Made by a program: the position numbers and the translations under genes. Of a stretch of 64,000 nucleotides of DNA, positions 3,334 through 52,005 are shown piece by piece. The notes beneath the pieces are model-generated. The model did not search any database. It was not told the DNA's origin and worked only from the letters and a program-made list of their open reading frames with translations. How positions within the stretch are numbered: position 1 is the first letter of the stretch; every line of letters begins with the position of its first letter. The DNA lies in assembly GCF_988242995.1 (NCBI RefSeq), contig NZ_OZ547043.1. The stretch is one strand, 5' to 3'.

Positions 3334-3804
3334 CTACTCTTCTTCCACCGCTAACTGCGCGAATCCGCCGTTCCCTTCCCAGCCTTCCAGCCGTTGATAA
3401 ACGGTTTCTACCGCATCTTTAATCGGCTGGGTCATCGGGTAGTAAAAGCCGACGATATCCGGCTGGATGCCGAGAAAAATCACTTCGCCAATATCTTCTT
3501 TTAACTGGTCGATAAGGTAGTTCAGCGGCATGTTATGGGTAGTCATCATAAACATCTCGGCGATATCATCCGGGTCGATTATGCGGATCTCGCCGGGGTT
3601 TAGCCCCATATCCGTGGCGTCGACAATCAGCAGTCGCGTAGGGCGCAGTTCACGGATGGCGACGATGTCGTTTTCCGGTGCACTACCGCCGTCAATCACC
3701 ACCCAGTGACCTTTCGGCGCGGCGGCGCACTTTTCCGCCAGTAGCGGGCCTGCGCCATCATCGCCCATCATGCTATTGCCAACACAGAGTAAAACGTCAG
3801 TCAC
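3334..3804 (-). CDS. hycI: Hydrogenase 3 maturation endopeptidase
   Basis: 156-aa ORF; translation [20 protein letters not shown]... matches HycI. Confidence 0.95.
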   Translation of the reverse strand: MTDVLLCVGNSMMGDDGAGPLLAEKCAAAPKGHWVVIDGGSAPENDIVAIRELRPTRLLIVDATDMGLNPGEIRIIDPDDIAEMFMMTTHNMPLNYLIDQLKEDIGEVIFLGIQPDIVGFYYPMTQPIKDAVETVYQRLEGWEGNGGFAQLAVEEE

Positions 3805-24824: not shown

Positions 24825-25459
24825 GCGATTTCGCAAAAGTAGAGCCGTCTTTGCGAGAGGAGATGACGCGGATTGCCAGTTCATTCTTTCAGCGCGGCTA
24901 TGCAACCGGTTCGGCTGGCAATCTGTCGCTGCTTTTACCTGACGGGAATTTACTGGCGACACCGACAGGTTCATGCCTGGGCAATCTCGATCCGCAGCGG
25001 CTTTCCAAAGTCGCCGCGGATGGCGAATGGTTAAGTGGTGACAAACCCTCGAAAGAGGTGCTCTTTCATCTGGCGCTGTATCGCAACAATCCGCGCTGTA
25101 AAGCGGTGGTGCATTTGCACAGCACATGGTCGACGGCGCTTTCCTGCCTGCAAGGGCTGGACAGCAGCAACGTTATTCGTCCGTTCACACCATACGTGGT
25201 GATGCGGATGGGAAATATCCCGCTGGTGCCTTATTACCGACCGGGCGATAAACGCATCGCACAGGATCTGGCGGAACTGGCAGCAGACAATCAGGCTTTT
25301 TTACTGGCAAATCATGGCCCAGTGGTTTGCGGTGAAAGCCTGCAAGAAGCCGCCAACAATATGGAAGAGCTGGAGGAAACGGCAAAGCTGATTTTTATTC
25401 TCGGTGATCGCCCGATCCGTTATCTGACCGCAGGTGAAATTGCGGAATTAAGGAGTTAA
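24821..25459 (+). CDS. ygbL: 3-oxo-tetronate 4-phosphate decarboxylase (class II aldolase/adducin family)
   Basis: 212-aa ORF; synteny. Confidence 0.85.
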
Positions 25460-46765: not shown

Positions 46766-47302
46766 TTAATTTTGTTCGTTATCGGCGTCGCCAGCCTGGT
46801 AATATTCCAGCGCCCAGCGGATACGGATAAATTCTGTTGGCCGCTGCTGGCGGCGGTGATGATTGAGCAGGTCGTCGCTCTCCTGGCACCAGCGGAAAAT
46901 ATCGTCTGCCAAAGAGATAAGATTGACGGAACCATTTAATAATTTGACCGCGCGACGTAACTGACGCAGTAAATCATCAGGCGTTTTTACTGCCGACAGG
47001 CGAGTAAAACGCCCCTCCGACATTACCGCCGCCAGCTGCGCGGCAAAAGGCTGCCGTTCATCAATAGCTTTAACATTGGCGCTAACTGCGGCGACCAGCG
47101 CCAGTGCGGTAAAACGCCACTCTTGTGCTTCAATTTTCCACAAAGTGTGGGTCTGCATCAGCAGAGAACGAAACCCTTCTGACAGACAAACATCATTAAC
47201 CGTTGTGCTACGCCGCAGACTGGCACGATTGCCGCGTTTTTCCTGCAACTCTTCGTGCCATTTACGCAGCGTGGCTTTGTGCTCCTCTTTTACAATACTC
47301 AT
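46766..47302 (-). CDS. cse2: Cse2 (CasB) Cascade small subunit
   Basis: 178-aa ORF; operon position; 4-bp overlap with cse1 stop. Confidence 0.8.
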   Translation of the reverse strand: MSIVKEEHKATLRKWHEELQEKRGNRASLRRSTTVNDVCLSEGFRSLLMQTHTLWKIEAQEWRFTALALVAAVSANVKAIDERQPFAAQLAAVMSEGRFTRLSAVKTPDDLLRQLRRAVKLLNGSVNLISLADDIFRWCQESDDLLNHHRRQQRPTEFIRIRWALEYYQAGDADNEQN

Positions 47303-48867
47303 TCAGCAGCCTCCTGCTTTTTCTCCCTGGCGGCTTTAGCATTTTGCTTCTCCGCCGATGTTGTAAAATATTTCTTGCGCGCGGTCATGACGCGTTTCAA
47401 ATCAACGGGCTCATATGGATTGGTGAAGACACGCTCGTCAAAATCCTGACGCGCGAATAACCAAATTTCCTTTTGCCATTTGCTGAGTAATTCATCCGCA
47501 TCCTGACCTTCTTCAATGTGGCGCACTAACCTCAGGAAGCGATGCTGAGTTTTGTTCCAGAAGTCGATATCCACAAAACTGAAATCACCCCGTGCACCTT
47601 TTGGATCGGAGAACCACGCTTCTTTCAATGCACTCCGTAACAGACTCAGAATCCGTGAAGCCGTTTGCGCAGCCAGCCGCAGCTTCGGTATCTGGCCTTC
47701 TTTTTTATCGAGCAGCAGCGGAAAATGGTGTTCGTACCAACAGCGCGCTTTCATGTTGTCAAAATCATAACCAAATCCCCACAGGCCCACTTTTGCCTGC
47801 TTGAGACTGCTGGCATTAAAGAGTTTCACCACCAGCGCGGGAAGTTCCGTATTGTTTTCTGATTTACCCGTTTCGATAAGGCCTAACCAGTCGCGCCAGA
47901 TTAAACCGCCTGGTTGTGGTTTGACCGAGTAAAACTCGCCGCCCTCTTTAAGGGGTACACGGTAAGGCGTTAAGGGATGCTGCCACATGGCATAATTCGC
48001 GCCGTAATTTTTGGTCGTCATCAGGCTCAGGAGCGCGTCGTTCTGCTCGCCGCAAATATCGCAGTTGCCGACTGTCGTGGTATTAAAATCAATACGAATA
48101 CGCCGCGGCATTCCCCAGTACGCCTGGAGTTTATTAACCTGATCATCGGTTACCACCGCACCGGCCAGTTCGCTGGTACGCGTCGGGCCAAGCCAGGGGA
48201 AAACCAGATCGTCAAATTTTTTGGGTAGCGGTAAGTCGGCTTCGTCCTGCGGCATCACATTGAGCCACAGTTTGCGCCACAAGGGCGTTTGTTGATTGCC
48301 CTGATATTCCTGTAATTCAATCAGAGTGGTCATCGGCCCACCGCCGCGTAAACCGGTGCGGTAGCCTTTACCACCTGACGGCGCATTTAACTGTAGGGAG
48401 AACAGAGCTAACGCAGAACAATGTGGGCAAAGGTATTCCGTTACACCACGCTTGATAAAGTGGTCTTTATTAAACTTCGTTGTTTGAGCGCCGGGAATCT
48501 CAGGCAGTAGCGAAGCGACCTGAACTTTATCTCCTGTGAGCGCCTCGAAATCCTGCATAAATGAAGGGGAATCTGGCCCAAACTGGAAAGCGTGTTCTAA
48601 GGACAGCAATGCTTCCCGTAGCTTTTCAGATTCCAGTCCGTCTTCCCAGATATCATCCCAACGACGATGATCTTTTGGCGCAAAGCTGGTTTGTAGTAGC
48701 CCCAGCAAAAACTGCCATGCCGCTCCCTGGAGATCTGCCCGTGGCGCAGCAATATCGACAACATTTTCATCCGCCAGATCGACAGGCGCCAGTTTGCCTG
48801 TCGTTCCGTCTTTATAACGAACGGGCAACCACGGGGTTGTCAGAAGTGAAAACGAGTTCATACGCAT
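47299..48867 (-). CDS. cse1: Cse1 (CasA) Cascade large subunit
   Basis: 522-aa ORF first downstream of cas3; strongly divergent from the K-12 CasA I recall. Confidence 0.8.
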   Translation of the reverse strand: MRMNSFSLLTTPWLPVRYKDGTTGKLAPVDLADENVVDIAAPRADLQGAAWQFLLGLLQTSFAPKDHRRWDDIWEDGLESEKLREALLSLEHAFQFGPDSPSFMQDFEALTGDKVQVASLLPEIPGAQTTKFNKDHFIKRGVTEYLCPHCSALALFSLQLNAPSGGKGYRTGLRGGGPMTTLIELQEYQGNQQTPLWRKLWLNVMPQDEADLPLPKKFDDLVFPWLGPTRTSELAGAVVTDDQVNKLQAYWGMPRRIRIDFNTTTVGNCDICGEQNDALLSLMTTKNYGANYAMWQHPLTPYRVPLKEGGEFYSVKPQPGGLIWRDWLGLIETGKSENNTELPALVVKLFNASSLKQAKVGLWGFGYDFDNMKARCWYEHHFPLLLDKKEGQIPKLRLAAQTASRILSLLRSALKEAWFSDPKGARGDFSFVDIDFWNKTQHRFLRLVRHIEEGQDADELLSKWQKEIWLFARQDFDERVFTNPYEPVDLKRVMTARKKYFTTSAEKQNAKAAREKKQEAAE

Positions 48868-48958
48868 CCTCTCGTAAAAAAGACCATCCTAGGTCGGTTG
48901 TCCATCATTCCATCCTTTTCGGTGTATCAACTATTCAGAGAGCCCTGTCGCAGGCATC

Positions 48959-51658
48959 TCAACCAACCTTGCCAGTCAATCCTTCCATAGCCGAATACCC
49001 GCAACTTTCGTCATCGGTAACTAAAATCACGTTTGCCATCTCCGGATCTTTCCGCTGTTCAATGCACCACTGCCTGAACGCTTCCCCTTCCAGTAAAGAA
49101 AACTCATCCCGATGTTTTTTCCACCAGCTTCGACGCACTCTGACAACGCTCATTTCCCATGCGTGAGCACCGTTGGCATAAGGCTTCACCACACTGGCAA
49201 TACAGGTAGCCAGCCACAGGGAAACAGACTCCTCCGCCAGACGTGTCGACAGCTTTTCCGGAAGGTAATCGTTGATATTGGCGGCATAGCCAGGCCTGAA
49301 GTTCAGCACAAACTTTTTAGCCATTGCGCGATCGCAGTAATATTTGCCCACTTGCTCCTGCTCGCTGCGGGCAAATCCTTCCGGCATTACCACGTCCTCA
49401 CCGTAGACTGATTCAATAAGAAGGCGGGCTGCGTGTGGCATTTGAATAGCGCCTTGCTCACGCAGTACACGCTGCGTCAGCCAGATTCGTCCATGATCGG
49501 GATAGACATATGCACTGTTACGCATGGCACTGCCGAACCATTCGTCACCTGGAGCGTCGTCCCAGACGGGGGCCAGAATCAGCAATTCAGGAGGGGAACG
49601 CTCGTCTTTTCCGTCACGCTTTAACTGACCATTAATATCGCGGATATGCCGCTGTAATCGCCCCGCTCGCTGGATCAGCAAATCAACAGGGGCCAGGTCG
49701 GAAATCATTTCGTCCATATCGCAATCAACGCTCGACTCTAAGACCTGAGTACAAATGAGGACTTTTCCGGCACGCTGTGAGCTATCTTCTTTACCGAAGC
49801 GTGCCAGCGTTTCCGTTTCAATTCGCTGGCGATCGCTAAAAGCAAAGCGGCTATGAAACAGAGAAAGGCTGGAAGCAGGAATGACGCCGCGGGCAAGCAA
49901 CTGACGATAAACCTTAATAGCGTCATCGACAGAATTCCGGATCCAGGCGATGCATTTCCCCTGACTTACTGCCGATTCGATACGCGCAATACATTCTTGT
50001 TCGCTATGAAGCCAACCCACGCTCACGCTACGCTCAACGTCTTTGCGCGTCGCTACCCGGTGTGAATGCACATCGGATTTCGTAACGTGCGTCAGCCAGG
50101 GGTAATCATCCTTTTCCAGGAACGGAGCTTCTTGCTGGCCCTCTGTACCACGCGCAAAGGCAGCAACGAGTTTGTCGCACTGCTGTTGAGATAACGTGGC
50201 AGAAAGCAAAATGACGCTGTTTCCGCCACGCGCCTGCCGCTCGATCAGCCCTTCAAGAATGCATGACATGTAAGCGTCACAGGCATGGATCTCATCAGCC
50301 AGCAGGATTTTGTTACTCAGTCCCAGAAGCCGCAGATTATTATGTTTGAACGGCATCACAGCCATCATCGCCTGATCCAGCGTGCCGACGCCAATTTCAG
50401 CCAGTAGCGCCTTCTTGTTACTGTCGGCAAACCAGGCCGCACATCCCTGACTGAACGTTTGTTCATCCGGTTCTTCTGACCCGACTAAATCACCGGACCA
50501 GAGTGATTCATTAAAGCGGTCCATTAATGTTCGGGCACTGTGTGCCAGCACCAGGCTGGGGCGGGACTCTGGCGAATAGAAAGCAAGCCAGGTTTTGACC
50601 AGTCGATCGTACATGGCATTGGCCGTTGCCATTGTTGGCAGGCCAAAAAACAAACCCTGCGCTTTACCCGCAGCCATCAACCTGTGCGCCAGGATAAGCG
50701 CCGCTTCCGTTTTACCTGCGCCAGTCACATCTTCCAGAATAAATAACTGTGGCCCTGGCTGGCTGATATCCAGATCCAGCACCTTTTGCTGTAACGGTGT
50801 CGGATTCTCAATAAAAGGAAACAGCGTATTAATTCCGGTGAAAGGCGCGACTTTTGCTTTTAGAGGAAAGACGGTTAAGGCGTTTTGAGCCTGAACTAAA
50901 GTTTTCTGCCAGTAACCTTTATTATCCATTGGGTGTGCGACGCGTGGAAAAAATCGCGTTGACGAACCCGTCCAGTCTGCGAGCACGACGGTTGCAGAGA
51001 TATACCAGGAAAGGTGTTTTATAAGTTCAATGCCCTCATCATCATCCCAGAATGCGGGGATCTCTATGAGCGGAAACAGTGGTTTGATTTCAAGAAGAAA
51101 ATCTCGCGCGGCAGCTTTGTCTTCAGGCAGAAAATTATCCAGTTCATCAATACGGTCAGGCGGGCGACCATGATGCCCGGTAGTTATGGGCATCCACATC
51201 GCTATTACACGTGTAAGTTTGCGGGGAGAGAGTGAAGAGGAAGGAAGTAACTCCTGACATTCACTTAAATAATGATGCCACAACCAGTAGCCCAGCGTTG
51301 AATGAGAGATTTTTTCGTAATTTTTTCTAGCACCTTCCGGAACCCTGAGTTTCGGGTGCAGGTAAAGTTGCTGAAATGAGCGGGCAAATTTACCAGTATC
51401 GTGCCAGCACAACAACCAGGCGAAAAATTGAGCCGCCTGTTCCTTGTCAGAAATCTCTAATTGACGAAAATAGTCAGCCAGTCCGAAGCAATTGCTTTTA
51501 ACCATTAAATAGCCCATCGCGGCTACATCCAGCGAATGCCAGCAAAGAAGGTGATAGTCGTCGCCCCCGTCTTTCTCGCCGCGTCGGGTTTTTCCCCAGA
51601 AATCAAAAAAAGTCACAATATTTTTATCCTTCAGTAAACTTAAAGGATATTTACGCAT
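48959..51658 (-). CDS. cas3: Cas3 nuclease/helicase (HD domain + SF2 helicase)
   Basis: 899-aa ORF; N-terminal HD region (HSLDVA, WHDTGK), helicase motifs GAGKTEAA and DEIH. Confidence 0.93.
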   Translation of the reverse strand: MRKYPLSLLKDKNIVTFFDFWGKTRRGEKDGGDDYHLLCWHSLDVAAMGYLMVKSNCFGLADYFRQLEISDKEQAAQFFAWLLCWHDTGKFARSFQQLYLHPKLRVPEGARKNYEKISHSTLGYWLWHHYLSECQELLPSSSLSPRKLTRVIAMWMPITTGHHGRPPDRIDELDNFLPEDKAAARDFLLEIKPLFPLIEIPAFWDDDEGIELIKHLSWYISATVVLADWTGSSTRFFPRVAHPMDNKGYWQKTLVQAQNALTVFPLKAKVAPFTGINTLFPFIENPTPLQQKVLDLDISQPGPQLFILEDVTGAGKTEAALILAHRLMAAGKAQGLFFGLPTMATANAMYDRLVKTWLAFYSPESRPSLVLAHSARTLMDRFNESLWSGDLVGSEEPDEQTFSQGCAAWFADSNKKALLAEIGVGTLDQAMMAVMPFKHNNLRLLGLSNKILLADEIHACDAYMSCILEGLIERQARGGNSVILLSATLSQQQCDKLVAAFARGTEGQQEAPFLEKDDYPWLTHVTKSDVHSHRVATRKDVERSVSVGWLHSEQECIARIESAVSQGKCIAWIRNSVDDAIKVYRQLLARGVIPASSLSLFHSRFAFSDRQRIETETLARFGKEDSSQRAGKVLICTQVLESSVDCDMDEMISDLAPVDLLIQRAGRLQRHIRDINGQLKRDGKDERSPPELLILAPVWDDAPGDEWFGSAMRNSAYVYPDHGRIWLTQRVLREQGAIQMPHAARLLIESVYGEDVVMPEGFARSEQEQVGKYYCDRAMAKKFVLNFRPGYAANINDYLPEKLSTRLAEESVSLWLATCIASVVKPYANGAHAWEMSVVRVRRSWWKKHRDEFSLLEGEAFRQWCIEQRKDPEMANVILVTDDESCGYSAMEGLTGKVG

Positions 51659-51825
51659 ATATTAAAAATTATCTGTGATATATATCGTTCAATAAAATAT
51701 TTACATTATGAATAATCAAATAATTTTCATCAGTAATATATATGAATAATAAACATAGGCATAATATTCACATAAACAATATAAATTAAAAAAGGGTGCA
51801 GGAGACCAAACCATCACAATTCAAT

Positions 51826-51847
51826 ACGCGGGGTTTTACCCCCGCGT
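51826..51847 (-). other. GC-rich hairpin immediately downstream of hok-like ORF; possible terminator or mRNA 3' fold-back element
   Basis: ACGCGGGG-TTTTAC-CCCCGCGT, 8-bp perfect stem. Confidence 0.35.
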
Positions 51848-51852
51848 GGTGG

Positions 51853-52005
51853 CTACTTCTTCGATTCGTAAGCGAGAACTGCCTTAAACTCCATACCACG
51901 TTCTCTGATACTCAACTCACACAACGAGTCGCCTACCATCAGCGTGAATCCCAGTACTGTACAACACAGTACGATGATTGCCACAAGGGCATATTTTGTC
52001 AGCAT
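51853..52005 (-). CDS. Hok/Gef-family type I toxin (small membrane peptide, HokE-like)
   Basis: 50-codon ORF absent from ORF track: [50 protein letters not shown]; GGGAGG RBS; TM helix plus conserved Cys; resembles Hok peptides from memory. Confidence 0.65.

What the first reader, a model, noticed from the sequence alone, without database searches (positions are those of the whole stretch)
48868..48958. cas3-cse1 intergenic region: likely Cascade operon promoter
A 91-bp gap separates cas3 stop from cse1 start, with an independent RBS for cse1. In K-12 the equivalent gap holds the H-NS-silenced, LeuO-activated Pcas promoter. With the divergent cse1 allele here, regulation may differ.
Basis: inference. 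Interest (0 to 1): 0.3.

Follow-up and report, generated by a model that had tools for sequence, protein, structure and literature searches.

The report
Short cas3–cse1 spacer, probably not Pcas
The short gap between cas3 and cse1 in this common non-K-12 E. coli CRISPR locus is real, but it looks like a cut-down mRNA leader carrying a conserved GGA-loop hairpin and ribosome-binding site, not the H-NS/LeuO-controlled promoter region known from K-12.

Summary
The gap is real, on the minus strand. The better-supported cse1 start is the second ATG (48861), so the gap is 97 bp (48862-48958), not 91. The locus is the non-K-12 'cas-E1/EO' type I-E variant, found in about 45% of complete E. coli genomes.

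The K-12 analogy does not transfer. K-12's gap is 414 bp, 29% GC and not homologous. This gap is 48% GC, has no H-NS-type motifs, and is shorter than the K-12 Pcas regulatory span.

Close relatives have gaps from 11 bp to over 800 bp. The long ones carry a hairpin, an inverted repeat mini-array and AT-rich DNA that are missing here.

The AT-rich, promoter-rich DNA lies upstream of cas3. An O157:H7 Cappable-seq start site maps there.

One borderline sigma-70-like site exists in the gap (TTGATA-15-TGgAATGAT).

The conserved part is the cse1-proximal 50 nt. It holds a covarying hairpin with loop ANGGAU about 30 nt before the ATG, plus a GGA-containing Shine-Dalgarno. This resembles a CsrA/RsmA site.

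Most likely the gap is a leader inside a cas3-led transcript. A weak internal promoter is not excluded. Ordinary locus; modest interest.

The parts
48959..51658 (-). cas3 as annotated (899 aa). The real start is probably the GTG at 51616.
   Evidence: NCBIfam Cas3 models match. Relatives align from residue 15. The EDL933 start site maps 19 nt inside the annotated CDS.
48862..48958 (-). cas3-cse1 intergenic gap: 97 bp, GC 0.48
48938..48960 (-). Weak hairpin overlapping the cas3 stop. It is probably a decayed remnant of the strong GC hairpin that follows cas3 in long-gap relatives. No U-run follows it.
   Evidence: -10.7 kcal/mol, z = -1.3 here; -16 to -25 kcal/mol, z = -2.6 to -5.6 in relatives. 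No terminator-like hit in the gap.
48904..48930 (-). Only sigma-70-like candidate: -35 TTGATA (48930-48925), 15-nt spacer, TGg-AATGAT (-10 at 48909-48904). The predicted start is about 48897-48899.
   Evidence: Own matrix scan scores it 9.0, the top 0.07% of positions, but 6.3% of random 91-nt stretches reach this. It is kept in E. coli alleles with -10 position 3 varying T/A/G. It is removed by an 8-bp indel in E. albertii and Escherichia sp..
48862..48911 (-). Conserved cse1-proximal leader block
   Evidence: 35/53 identical to the cse1-proximal end of the 420-bp Salmonella (L051) and 176-bp Intestinirhabdus (L017) gaps; 0/300 shuffles score as well.
48882..48895 (-). Conserved hairpin GACC[UAGGAU]GGUC with GGA in a hexaloop closed by C-G; candidate CsrA/RsmA site
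   Evidence: The same hairpin lies at -27 to -35 from the cse1 ATG in 11 of the 12 genera compared (at -59 in Chimaeribacter), with different stems. Five of 6 pairs show compensatory changes. Covariation is 0.548 against 0.169 in shuffles (0/500). It is the best covariance-model hit in the window.
48864..48873 (-). Shine-Dalgarno GAGAGG (48873-48868) within GAGAGGAUGC, the second GGAUG motif, 20 nt after the hairpin GGA
48909..48917 (-). Upstream AAAGGAUGG, the third GGAUG motif in the leader
   Evidence: Three GGATG in 97 nt occur in 0.04% of shuffles and 0.23% of window stretches.
48858..48908 (-). Small upstream ORF MMDNRPRMVFFTRGCV*, whose stop TGA overlaps the cse1 ATG (ATGA). Its status is doubtful.
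   Evidence: It is present in Escherichia, Intestinirhabdus and Salmonella L051, but most substitutions are non-synonymous.
47299..48861 (-). cse1/casA (520 aa), E1 variant
   Evidence: TIGR02547 at 7e-183; PGAP annotation
51617..51852 (-). AT-rich region upstream of cas3, the probable regulated promoter region. The position equivalent to the EDL933 start site is 51639.
   Evidence: GC 0.21-0.27. Many high-scoring -35/-10 pairs. H-NS-motif-like sites at 2.9 per 100 bp. Start site 3694696 in four stationary-phase conditions in EDL933.

Best explanation
The 97-bp gap is a shortened leader or spacer, not a K-12-type Pcas region.

Shown:
- It belongs to the non-K-12 (E1/EO) type I-E variant.
- It is not AT-rich.
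- It has no similarity to K-12's intergenic region.
- Only its cse1-proximal ~50 nt are conserved with relatives. That part holds a covarying hairpin with an A-N-G-G-A-U loop about 30 nt before the start codon, followed 20 nt later by a GGA-containing Shine-Dalgarno.

Inferred:
- The gap derives from a longer ancestral intergenic region (post-cas3 hairpin, inverted repeat mini-array, AT-rich promoter DNA) whose middle was lost.
- cas3 has no effective terminator, so cse1 to cas2 are transcribed mainly by read-through from the AT-rich promoter region upstream of cas3. If H-NS silencing exists here, it would act there.
- The hairpin plus the Shine-Dalgarno form a CsrA/RsmA-type translational repression site. 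A CsrA dimer would bridge the loop GGA and the SD GGA and block ribosome binding to cse1.
- Any promoter inside the gap is weak and not of the H-NS/LeuO kind.
For: Identity and prevalence of the variant.

Non-equivalence with K-12:
- 414 bp at GC 0.29 against 97 bp at GC 0.48.
- No similarity.
- Cse1 proteins are 21% identical.
- H-NS-like motifs: 0 in the gap, 2.4 per 100 bp in K-12 and 2.9 per 100 bp upstream of cas3.
- The K-12 LeuO sites span more than 170 bp.

Gap length among relatives with 47-96% Cse1 identity:
- 11 bp: common Salmonella type, C. youngae, C. freundii, Phytobacter.
- 28 bp: E. kobei.
- 89 bp: E. albertii and Escherichia sp.
- 97 bp: E. coli.
- Also 151, 176, 420, 429, 484, 495, 500, 500, 655 and 862 bp, and about 1,300 bp in Pectobacterium, where a higBA pair is inserted.

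The 420-500-bp gaps checked against the repeat start with a strong hairpin plus an antisense repeat-like element (2-9 of 29 mismatches). The longer Atlantibacter and Chimaeribacter gaps show the same by eye. The window shows chance-level similarity, 16-17 of 29 mismatches.

This pattern is described in PMC10120712.

No terminator in the gap.

In Salmonella of the 11-bp type, cas3 is reported to be part of the cas operon. A cassette replacing cas3 raises cse1 20-fold.

The cas3 start site in O157:H7 EDL933 maps to window 51639.

Leader homology.

Hairpin covariation and specificity.

GGAUG enrichment.

The Rsm/Csr pathway regulates type I-E, I-F and III cas expression in Serratia (title and abstract of PMC8450108).
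Against: - No transcript data across the cas3-cse1 junction were available.
- The stored copy of the EDL933 start-site table is cut off before casA, so a start site in the gap is neither shown nor excluded.
- A moderately scoring promoter-like site exists in all E. coli alleles.
- K-12 and S. Typhi both transcribe cas3 separately from cse1.
- Similarity of the 5' half of the gap to the hairpin and repeat of relatives is weak (p about 0.02 to 0.9), so the deletion scenario is tentative.
- The CsrA consensus was recalled from memory.
- The window allele departs from the consensus at one position: CUAGGAUG against CANGGANG.
- I derived the hairpin structure by eye from the same sequences used for the counts.
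Confidence: 0.5

Rival explanations
1. The gap holds the main Cascade-operon promoter, silenced by H-NS and activated by LeuO as in K-12.
For: K-12 and S. Typhi do have such promoters upstream of casA/cse1. One sigma-70-like candidate lies in the gap.
Against: - The gap is 48% GC and has no H-NS-motif-like sites.
- It is not homologous to K-12's region.
- It is too short for the K-12 architecture.
- The Typhi-type locus has cas3 divergent from cse1 with a 357-bp gap, and its Cse1 is only 40% identical.
- Sister loci manage with 11 bp.
Confidence: 0.1
2. A weak, largely unregulated sigma-70 promoter (TTGATA-15-TGgAATGAT) starts transcription near 48897-48899, just before the conserved hairpin. 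This would give cas3-independent basal Cascade expression in addition to read-through.
For: - It scores in the top 0.07% of positions.
- It is present in all ten E. coli alleles.
- It has an extended -10 TG.
- The predicted start lies 2-4 nt before the hairpin, a typical 5' stabiliser arrangement.
Against: - The 15-nt spacer is short, and the tool's own scan rejects the site.
- 6.3% of random stretches score as well.
- Its -10 arose from an 8-bp duplication absent in E. albertii and Escherichia sp..
- Position 3 of the -10 varies.
- The -10 overlaps the conserved upstream AUGGAC motif, which such a transcript would lack.
Confidence: 0.3
3. The conserved hairpin is not a CsrA site. It could instead be an mRNA stabiliser or processing signal, a ribosome standby element, or part of an upstream-ORF coupling device (MDNRPGMVFFTRGCV*, whose stop overlaps the cse1 ATG).
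For: The hairpin is conserved. The upstream ORF is present in Escherichia, Intestinirhabdus and Salmonella L051 in the same frame relative to cse1.
Against: - The invariant GGA in a C-G-closed hexaloop, together with a second GGA at the SD, is the signature of CsrA/Rsm sites (consensus recalled from memory).
- The upstream ORF shows mostly non-synonymous differences.
- That ORF is absent from the Klebsiella, Cronobacter, Pectobacterium and Dickeya leaders, which keep the hairpin.
Confidence: 0.2

Closest known systems
E. coli K-12 Pcas in the cas3-casA intergenic region (Pul 2010 and Westra 2010, cited in PMC3903273; PMC12968389)
   Same: Same position in the gene order (cas3 then casA/cse1), same chromosomal site (iap-cysH), and same CRISPR subtype I-E.
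   Different: The K-12 gap is 414 bp at GC 0.29, with H-NS and LeuO sites, an antisense promoter and a degenerate mini-array. The window's gap is 97 bp at GC 0.48 with none of these and no sequence similarity. The Cse1 proteins are 21% identical.
Common Salmonella-type (reported as Cas-STM; Typhimurium/Enteritidis), Citrobacter and Phytobacter type I-E loci, in which cas3 is the first gene of the cas operon
   Same: These carry the closest characterised Cse1 relatives (74-77% identical). The AT-rich region lies upstream of cas3, and cas3 is followed directly by cse1 on the same strand. Co-transcription is reported.
   Different: Those loci have only 11 bp between cas3 and cse1 and lack the leader hairpin. 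The window keeps 97 bp, including the conserved leader. That L049/L050 are the Cas-STM type is my inference from cluster size; I did not check serovars.
S. Typhi LeuO/H-NS/Lrp-regulated cse1 operon (Medina-Aparicio 2011 and 2017, as summarised in PMC8039139)
   Same: A type I-E locus in an enterobacterium with an experimentally studied cse1 promoter.
   Different: In the Salmonella locus that matches the published description, cas3 is divergent from cse1 with a 357-bp gap, and its Cse1 is 40% identical to this one. I did not confirm that L052 is serovar Typhi.
Rsm/Csr (RsmA/CsrA) post-transcriptional control of cas operons in Serratia sp. ATCC 39006 (PMC8450108)
   Same: An RNA-binding repressor controls type I-E cas expression. 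The leader here has a GGA-loop hairpin plus an SD GGA, as CsrA targets do.
   Different: No binding or genetic data exist for E. coli E1 loci. I could not read that paper (paper cap reached), so I do not know whether it reports this hairpin.
Regulatory mini-arrays between cas3 and cas8e (Shmakov et al. 2023, PMC10120712)
   Same: Long-gap relatives of this locus carry exactly this feature right after cas3.
   Different: The window has no recognisable repeat-like element. [quoted passage not shown]

Membership tests
K-12-type Pcas (H-NS-silenced, LeuO-activated promoter region) | Sequence homology to the K-12 cas3-casA intergenic region | tested here: not met
   Only 7-8-nt chance matches were found. 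Global alignments score no better than shuffles.
K-12-type Pcas (H-NS-silenced, LeuO-activated promoter region) | AT-rich DNA with H-NS nucleation-type sites | tested here: not met
   GC is 0.48 against 0.29 in K-12. No sites fall within 3 mismatches of TCGATAAATT (motif recalled from memory), against 10 in K-12's gap. The longest A/T-only run is 7 nt.
K-12-type Pcas (H-NS-silenced, LeuO-activated promoter region) | Room for LeuO sites flanking the start site (-116..-101 and +40..+55 in K-12) | tested here: not met
   The K-12 span of more than 170 bp (PMC12968389) exceeds the 97-bp gap.
K-12-type Pcas (H-NS-silenced, LeuO-activated promoter region) | Sigma-70 -35/-10 pair | tested here: inconclusive
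   The consensus scan gives no hits. My own matrix gives one candidate with a 15-nt spacer, and 6.3% of random stretches reach its score.
K-12-type Pcas (H-NS-silenced, LeuO-activated promoter region) | Mapped start site that is derepressed without H-NS | not testable with these tools
   The held copy of the EDL933 start-site table stops before casA. No hns-mutant data for E1 strains were found.
CsrA/RsmA-binding mRNA leader | GGA in the loop of a short hairpin | tested here: met
   GACC[UAGGAU]GGUC at 48895-48882. The loop GGA is invariant, and the stem covaries across 15 sequences from 12 genera.
CsrA/RsmA-binding mRNA leader | Flanking consensus CANGGANG (recalled from memory of published SELEX and structural work) | tested here: inconclusive
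   Most relatives and several E. coli alleles match 8 of 8 (CCAGGGAUGG). The window allele has CUAGGAUG, 7 of 8.
CsrA/RsmA-binding mRNA leader | Second GGA site overlapping the Shine-Dalgarno, 10-60 nt away | tested here: met
   GAGAGGAUG lies 20 nt downstream. The spacing is 17-20 nt in Klebsiella and Pectobacterium. Dickeya's SD lacks GGA.
CsrA/RsmA-binding mRNA leader | Binding by CsrA and CsrA-dependent translation | not testable with these tools
   This needs a gel shift or toeprint and csrA or csrB/csrC genetics.
Regulatory mini-array (repeat-like element between cas3 and cas8e) | CRISPR repeat-like sequence in the gap | tested here: not met
   The best match has 16-17 mismatches of 29 in the window, against 2-9 in long-gap relatives.
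Intrinsic terminator after cas3 | Stable GC hairpin followed by a U-run | tested here: not met
   No terminator-like hit in the gap. The hairpin is -10.7 kcal/mol with z = -1.3 and has no U-run.

The most novel reading that the evidence does not exclude
In the E1-type type I-E loci (about 45% of E. coli, including O157:H7, and many Enterobacterales), Cascade production would be gated after transcription by CsrA. CsrA would bind a conserved C[ANGGAU]G hairpin plus the cse1 Shine-Dalgarno. E. coli would have lost the ancestral cse1 promoter and mini-array, so that Cascade depends on the stationary-phase cas3 promoter plus relief of CsrA repression. This is a different regulatory logic from the K-12 H-NS/LeuO paradigm.
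Probability: 0.3. Interest if true: 0.5.

Novelty: new member of a known kind. Interest (0 to 1): 0.3.

Why it matters
Almost everything known about E. coli CRISPR regulation comes from K-12, whose cas variant is the minority type and is only distantly related at the Cse1 level. If the common E1 variant is driven from upstream of cas3 and gated by a CsrA-type leader, then conclusions about 'silent' E. coli CRISPR-Cas and about H-NS/LeuO control should not be carried over to natural isolates and pathogens. The leader hairpin also gives a simple, testable handle. As a sequence feature, though, the gap is an ordinary short intergenic leader in a well-annotated locus.

Tried and rejected
- Rfam search of 48600-49200 found only chance snoRNA-like matches with E above 0.3.
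- Folding the whole gap showed it is not unusually structured (z = +0.87).
- The 201-aa antisense ORF 48561-49166(+) that spans the gap has no Pfam match. The 8-bp indel in E. albertii would break its frame, so I treat it as spurious.
- Diversity within E. coli is similar in the gap (13 variable sites in 97) and in the cas3 3' end (93 in 792), so it is uninformative.
- The upstream ORF as a coding element shows mostly non-synonymous differences.
- I looked for a remnant CRISPR repeat in the gap and found none.
- Direct transcription evidence: the EDL933 Cappable-seq tables gave a cas3 start site, but the stored sheets stop before casA, and the internal and antisense start-site sheets stop before 3.69 Mb.
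- The Sakai dRNA-seq and Salmonella supplements are not held or not informative.
- An apparent 'casA' hit in an EHEC macrophage preprint was an author's name.
- The two primary S. Typhi papers are not held.
- The second-best covariance-model hit (25008-25029, +) lies inside a coding region and is probably chance.

Full report
**What is at the coordinates**

The window is E. coli chromosome: iap, CRISPR array, cas2 to cas3, hok, cysHIJ. All cas genes are on the minus strand.
- cas3 is the ORF 48959-51658.
- The second ATG (48861) is the better-supported cse1 start, for four reasons:
  - PGAP uses it in every E. coli genome I inspected.
  - The first ATG is ATA in O157:H7.
  - Orthologues begin at the aligned second ATG.
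  - GAGAGG (48873-48868) abuts the first ATG but lies 6 nt before the second.
- The gap is therefore 97 bp (48862-48958), and it has its own RBS.
- A 651-bp query spanning the gap matches 2,450 of 5,426 complete E. coli genomes at 90-100% identity.
- This is the non-K-12 cas-E variant called cas-EO or cas-E1 in the literature.

**The K-12 analogy**
- K-12's cas3-casA gap is 414 bp at 29% GC. This gap is 97 bp at 48% GC.
- No similarity is detectable between the two.
- The two Cse1 proteins are 21% identical.
- Sites resembling the H-NS high-affinity motif (recalled from memory) number 0 in the gap. They number 2.4 per 100 bp in K-12's gap, 2.9 per 100 bp upstream of cas3 here, and 0.83 per 100 bp as window background.
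- K-12's LeuO and LrhA sites lie at -116..-101 and +40..+55 relative to the Pcas start (PMC12968389). That span is longer than this whole gap.
- The S. Typhi system is no closer. The Salmonella locus matching its published description has cas3 divergent from cse1 across 357 bp, and its Cse1 is 40% identical to this one.

**Promoter content**
- The tool's sigma-70 scan finds nothing in 48500-49500.
- My looser position-weight scan uses hexamer frequencies from memory. It finds one candidate: TTGATA (48930-48925), a 15-nt spacer, then TGg-AATGAT (48909-48904).
- That candidate scores in the top 0.07% of positions, but 6.3% of random 91-nt stretches of the window do as well.
- It is kept in the E. 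coli alleles, with -10 position 3 varying T/A/G.
- The -10 sits in an 8-bp duplication that E. albertii and another Escherichia species lack.
- The 200 nt upstream of cas3 are 21% GC and full of high-scoring -35/-10 pairs.

**Relatives**

Cse1 relatives at 47-96% identity show cas3-cse1 gaps of very different lengths:

| Gap | Organisms |
|---|---|
| 11 bp | the common Salmonella type, C. youngae, C. freundii, Phytobacter |
| 28 bp | E. kobei |
| 89 bp | E. albertii, Escherichia sp. |
| 97 bp | E. coli, including an allele with 83% Cse1 identity |
| 151-862 bp | K. indica 151, Intestinirhabdus 176, a rare Salmonella 420, Cronobacter 429, K. aerogenes 484, C. rodentium 495, K. spallanzanii 500, Atlantibacter 500, Dickeya 655, Chimaeribacter 862 |
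| about 1,300 bp | Pectobacterium, with a higBA pair inserted |

- The long gaps checked against the repeat begin with a strong GC hairpin (-16 to -25 kcal/mol where folded). An antisense CRISPR repeat-like element follows (2-9 mismatches of 29), and then AT-rich DNA.
- This is the regulatory mini-array arrangement already described for type I-E by Shmakov et al. They also note that typical I-E loci have no room for it.
- The window has only a weak hairpin (-10.7 kcal/mol, z = -1.3), no repeat-like sequence and no terminator.
- Its last 50 nt are clearly homologous to the cse1-proximal end of the Salmonella 420-bp and Intestinirhabdus 176-bp gaps (35/53 identical, 0/300 shuffles). Its first 40 nt are at best weakly similar to the start of those gaps.
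- I therefore read the 97 bp as what remains of a longer regulatory region whose middle was lost. This reading is an inference.

**Where transcription probably starts**
- In Salmonella of the 11-bp type, cas3 is treated as part of the cas operon. Replacing cas3 with a cassette raises cse1 20-fold.
- In O157:H7 EDL933 the gap has the same length and differs from this one at six positions. Cappable-seq lists a minus-strand start site at 3,694,696 for cas3 in all four stationary-phase conditions.
- That position corresponds to window 51639. It lies 19 nt inside the annotated cas3 CDS and 23 nt before a GTG at 51616, where relatives' Cas3 proteins begin to align.
- The part of that table that would show a casA start site is not in the stored copy. 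A start in the gap is therefore neither shown nor excluded.
- With no terminator after cas3, read-through into cse1 is the simplest expectation.

**What is conserved in the gap**
- All relatives with a gap of at least 89 bp carry a small hairpin with a hexaloop A-N-G-G-A-U closed by C-G.
- It lies 27-35 nt before the cse1 ATG (59 nt in Chimaeribacter).
- The stems differ between genera:
  - E. coli: GACC/GGTC
  - Klebsiella: GCGCC/GGCGC
  - Cronobacter: AGGCC/GGCCT
  - Pectobacterium: TGCCGC/GCGGCG
  - Dickeya: CCTC/GAGG
- On 15 sequences, 5 of 6 pairs show compensatory changes. The covariation score is 0.548, against 0.169 in shuffles (0/500) and at most 0.165 when partners are slid.
- Caveat: I derived this structure by eye from the same sequences.
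- A covariance model finds its best hit in the 64-kb window at 48878-48899. It recovers the held-out K. indica site.
- The model finds nothing upstream of cse1 in the 11-bp loci, K-12, the Typhi-type locus, Gilliamella or the archaeal loci.
- The gap contains GGATG three times. Only 0.04% of shuffles and 0.23% of window stretches reach that. The three copies lie upstream, in the hairpin loop, and in the Shine-Dalgarno 20 nt further on.
- C-ANGGAU-G in a loop plus a GGA at the SD matches the CsrA/RsmA binding pattern as I recall it (CANGGANG; RUACARGGAUGU).
- The Rsm/Csr pathway is known to control type I-E cas expression in Serratia (title and abstract only). I could not read that paper.
- CsrA binding here is a hypothesis, not a result.

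**Verdict**
Regulation does differ from K-12, but the evidence points away from an H-NS/LeuO promoter in this gap.
- The evidence points toward a leader inside a cas3-led transcript. That leader has a conserved, probably CsrA-type, translational control hairpin. At most a weak internal promoter is present.
- The locus is common and well annotated, so interest is modest. The leader hairpin is the one item worth an experiment.

Noticed in passing
window 51616-51658 (minus strand): The annotated cas3 start (ATG 51658) is probably wrong. The EDL933 Cappable-seq start site maps to window 51639, inside the annotated CDS. Relatives' Cas3 proteins align only from residue 15, a GTG at 51616 preceded by AAGGA.
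   Followed up: partly
window 51853-52005 (minus strand) and 51617-51852: A Hok/Gef toxin gene sits between cysH and cas3, followed by a hairpin and a 19-27% GC stretch. This is the hok-sok element that the literature associates with particular cas-E arrangements.
   Followed up: no
window 48561-49166 (plus strand): A 201-aa ORF runs antisense through the cse1 start, the gap and the cas3 end. It has no Pfam match, and an 8-bp indel in E. albertii would break it, so it is probably spurious.
   Followed up: partly
L015 2513-2611; L056 3349-3447; L018 3845-3943; L055 ending at 3448; L032 3878-3946: Long-gap relatives (Klebsiella, Atlantibacter, C. rodentium, and more loosely Cronobacter) carry a conserved ~32-aa basic ORF just upstream of the cse1 leader. 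An example is MEEKPNRYKRLFCRLMIRLGNKLSVSFQLSVR. It has no Pfam or NCBIfam match and is absent from the window.
   Followed up: partly
window 48903-48918, compared with L012 and L013: E. coli has an 8-bp tandem duplication (GGATGGAA|TGATGGAC) relative to E. albertii and Escherichia sp. The duplication creates the only -10-like element in the gap.
   Followed up: yes
L060 1363-2202: In Pectobacterium a HigB toxin and an HTH antitoxin pair is inserted between cas3 and cse1.
   Followed up: no
L033-L045: Cse1 homologues of 37-41% identity, with cas3 upstream, occur in Methanosarcinales and Methanoperedenaceae archaea and a Lambdaproteobacteria MAG. This suggests old inter-domain transfer of this I-E lineage.
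   Followed up: no
L011 (6,981-bp contig labelled Collinsella sp. MAG): The contig encodes a Cse1 98% identical to the E. coli protein and has the same 97-bp gap. It is almost certainly E. coli DNA mis-binned into an actinobacterial MAG.
   Followed up: no
L058 831-3472; L004, L005; L001 1788-2711: Several copies of the locus are decaying. cas3 is split or frameshifted in E. kobei and two E. coli strains. casA has an internal stop in one strain. cas1e is annotated with an internal stop in strain 118UI.
   Followed up: no
L002 (K-12) about 26 nt upstream of the casA ATG: K-12's unrelated casA leader also has three GGA motifs within 40 nt of the ATG, including a small AUG[UCGGAG]CAU hairpin. CsrA-type control might therefore not be limited to the E1 variant.
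   Followed up: no
window 25008-25029 (plus strand): The second-best hit of the hairpin model (CGCC[GCGGAT]GGCG, 17.3 bits) lies about 190 nt inside a 212-aa ORF. It is probably chance.
   Followed up: partly
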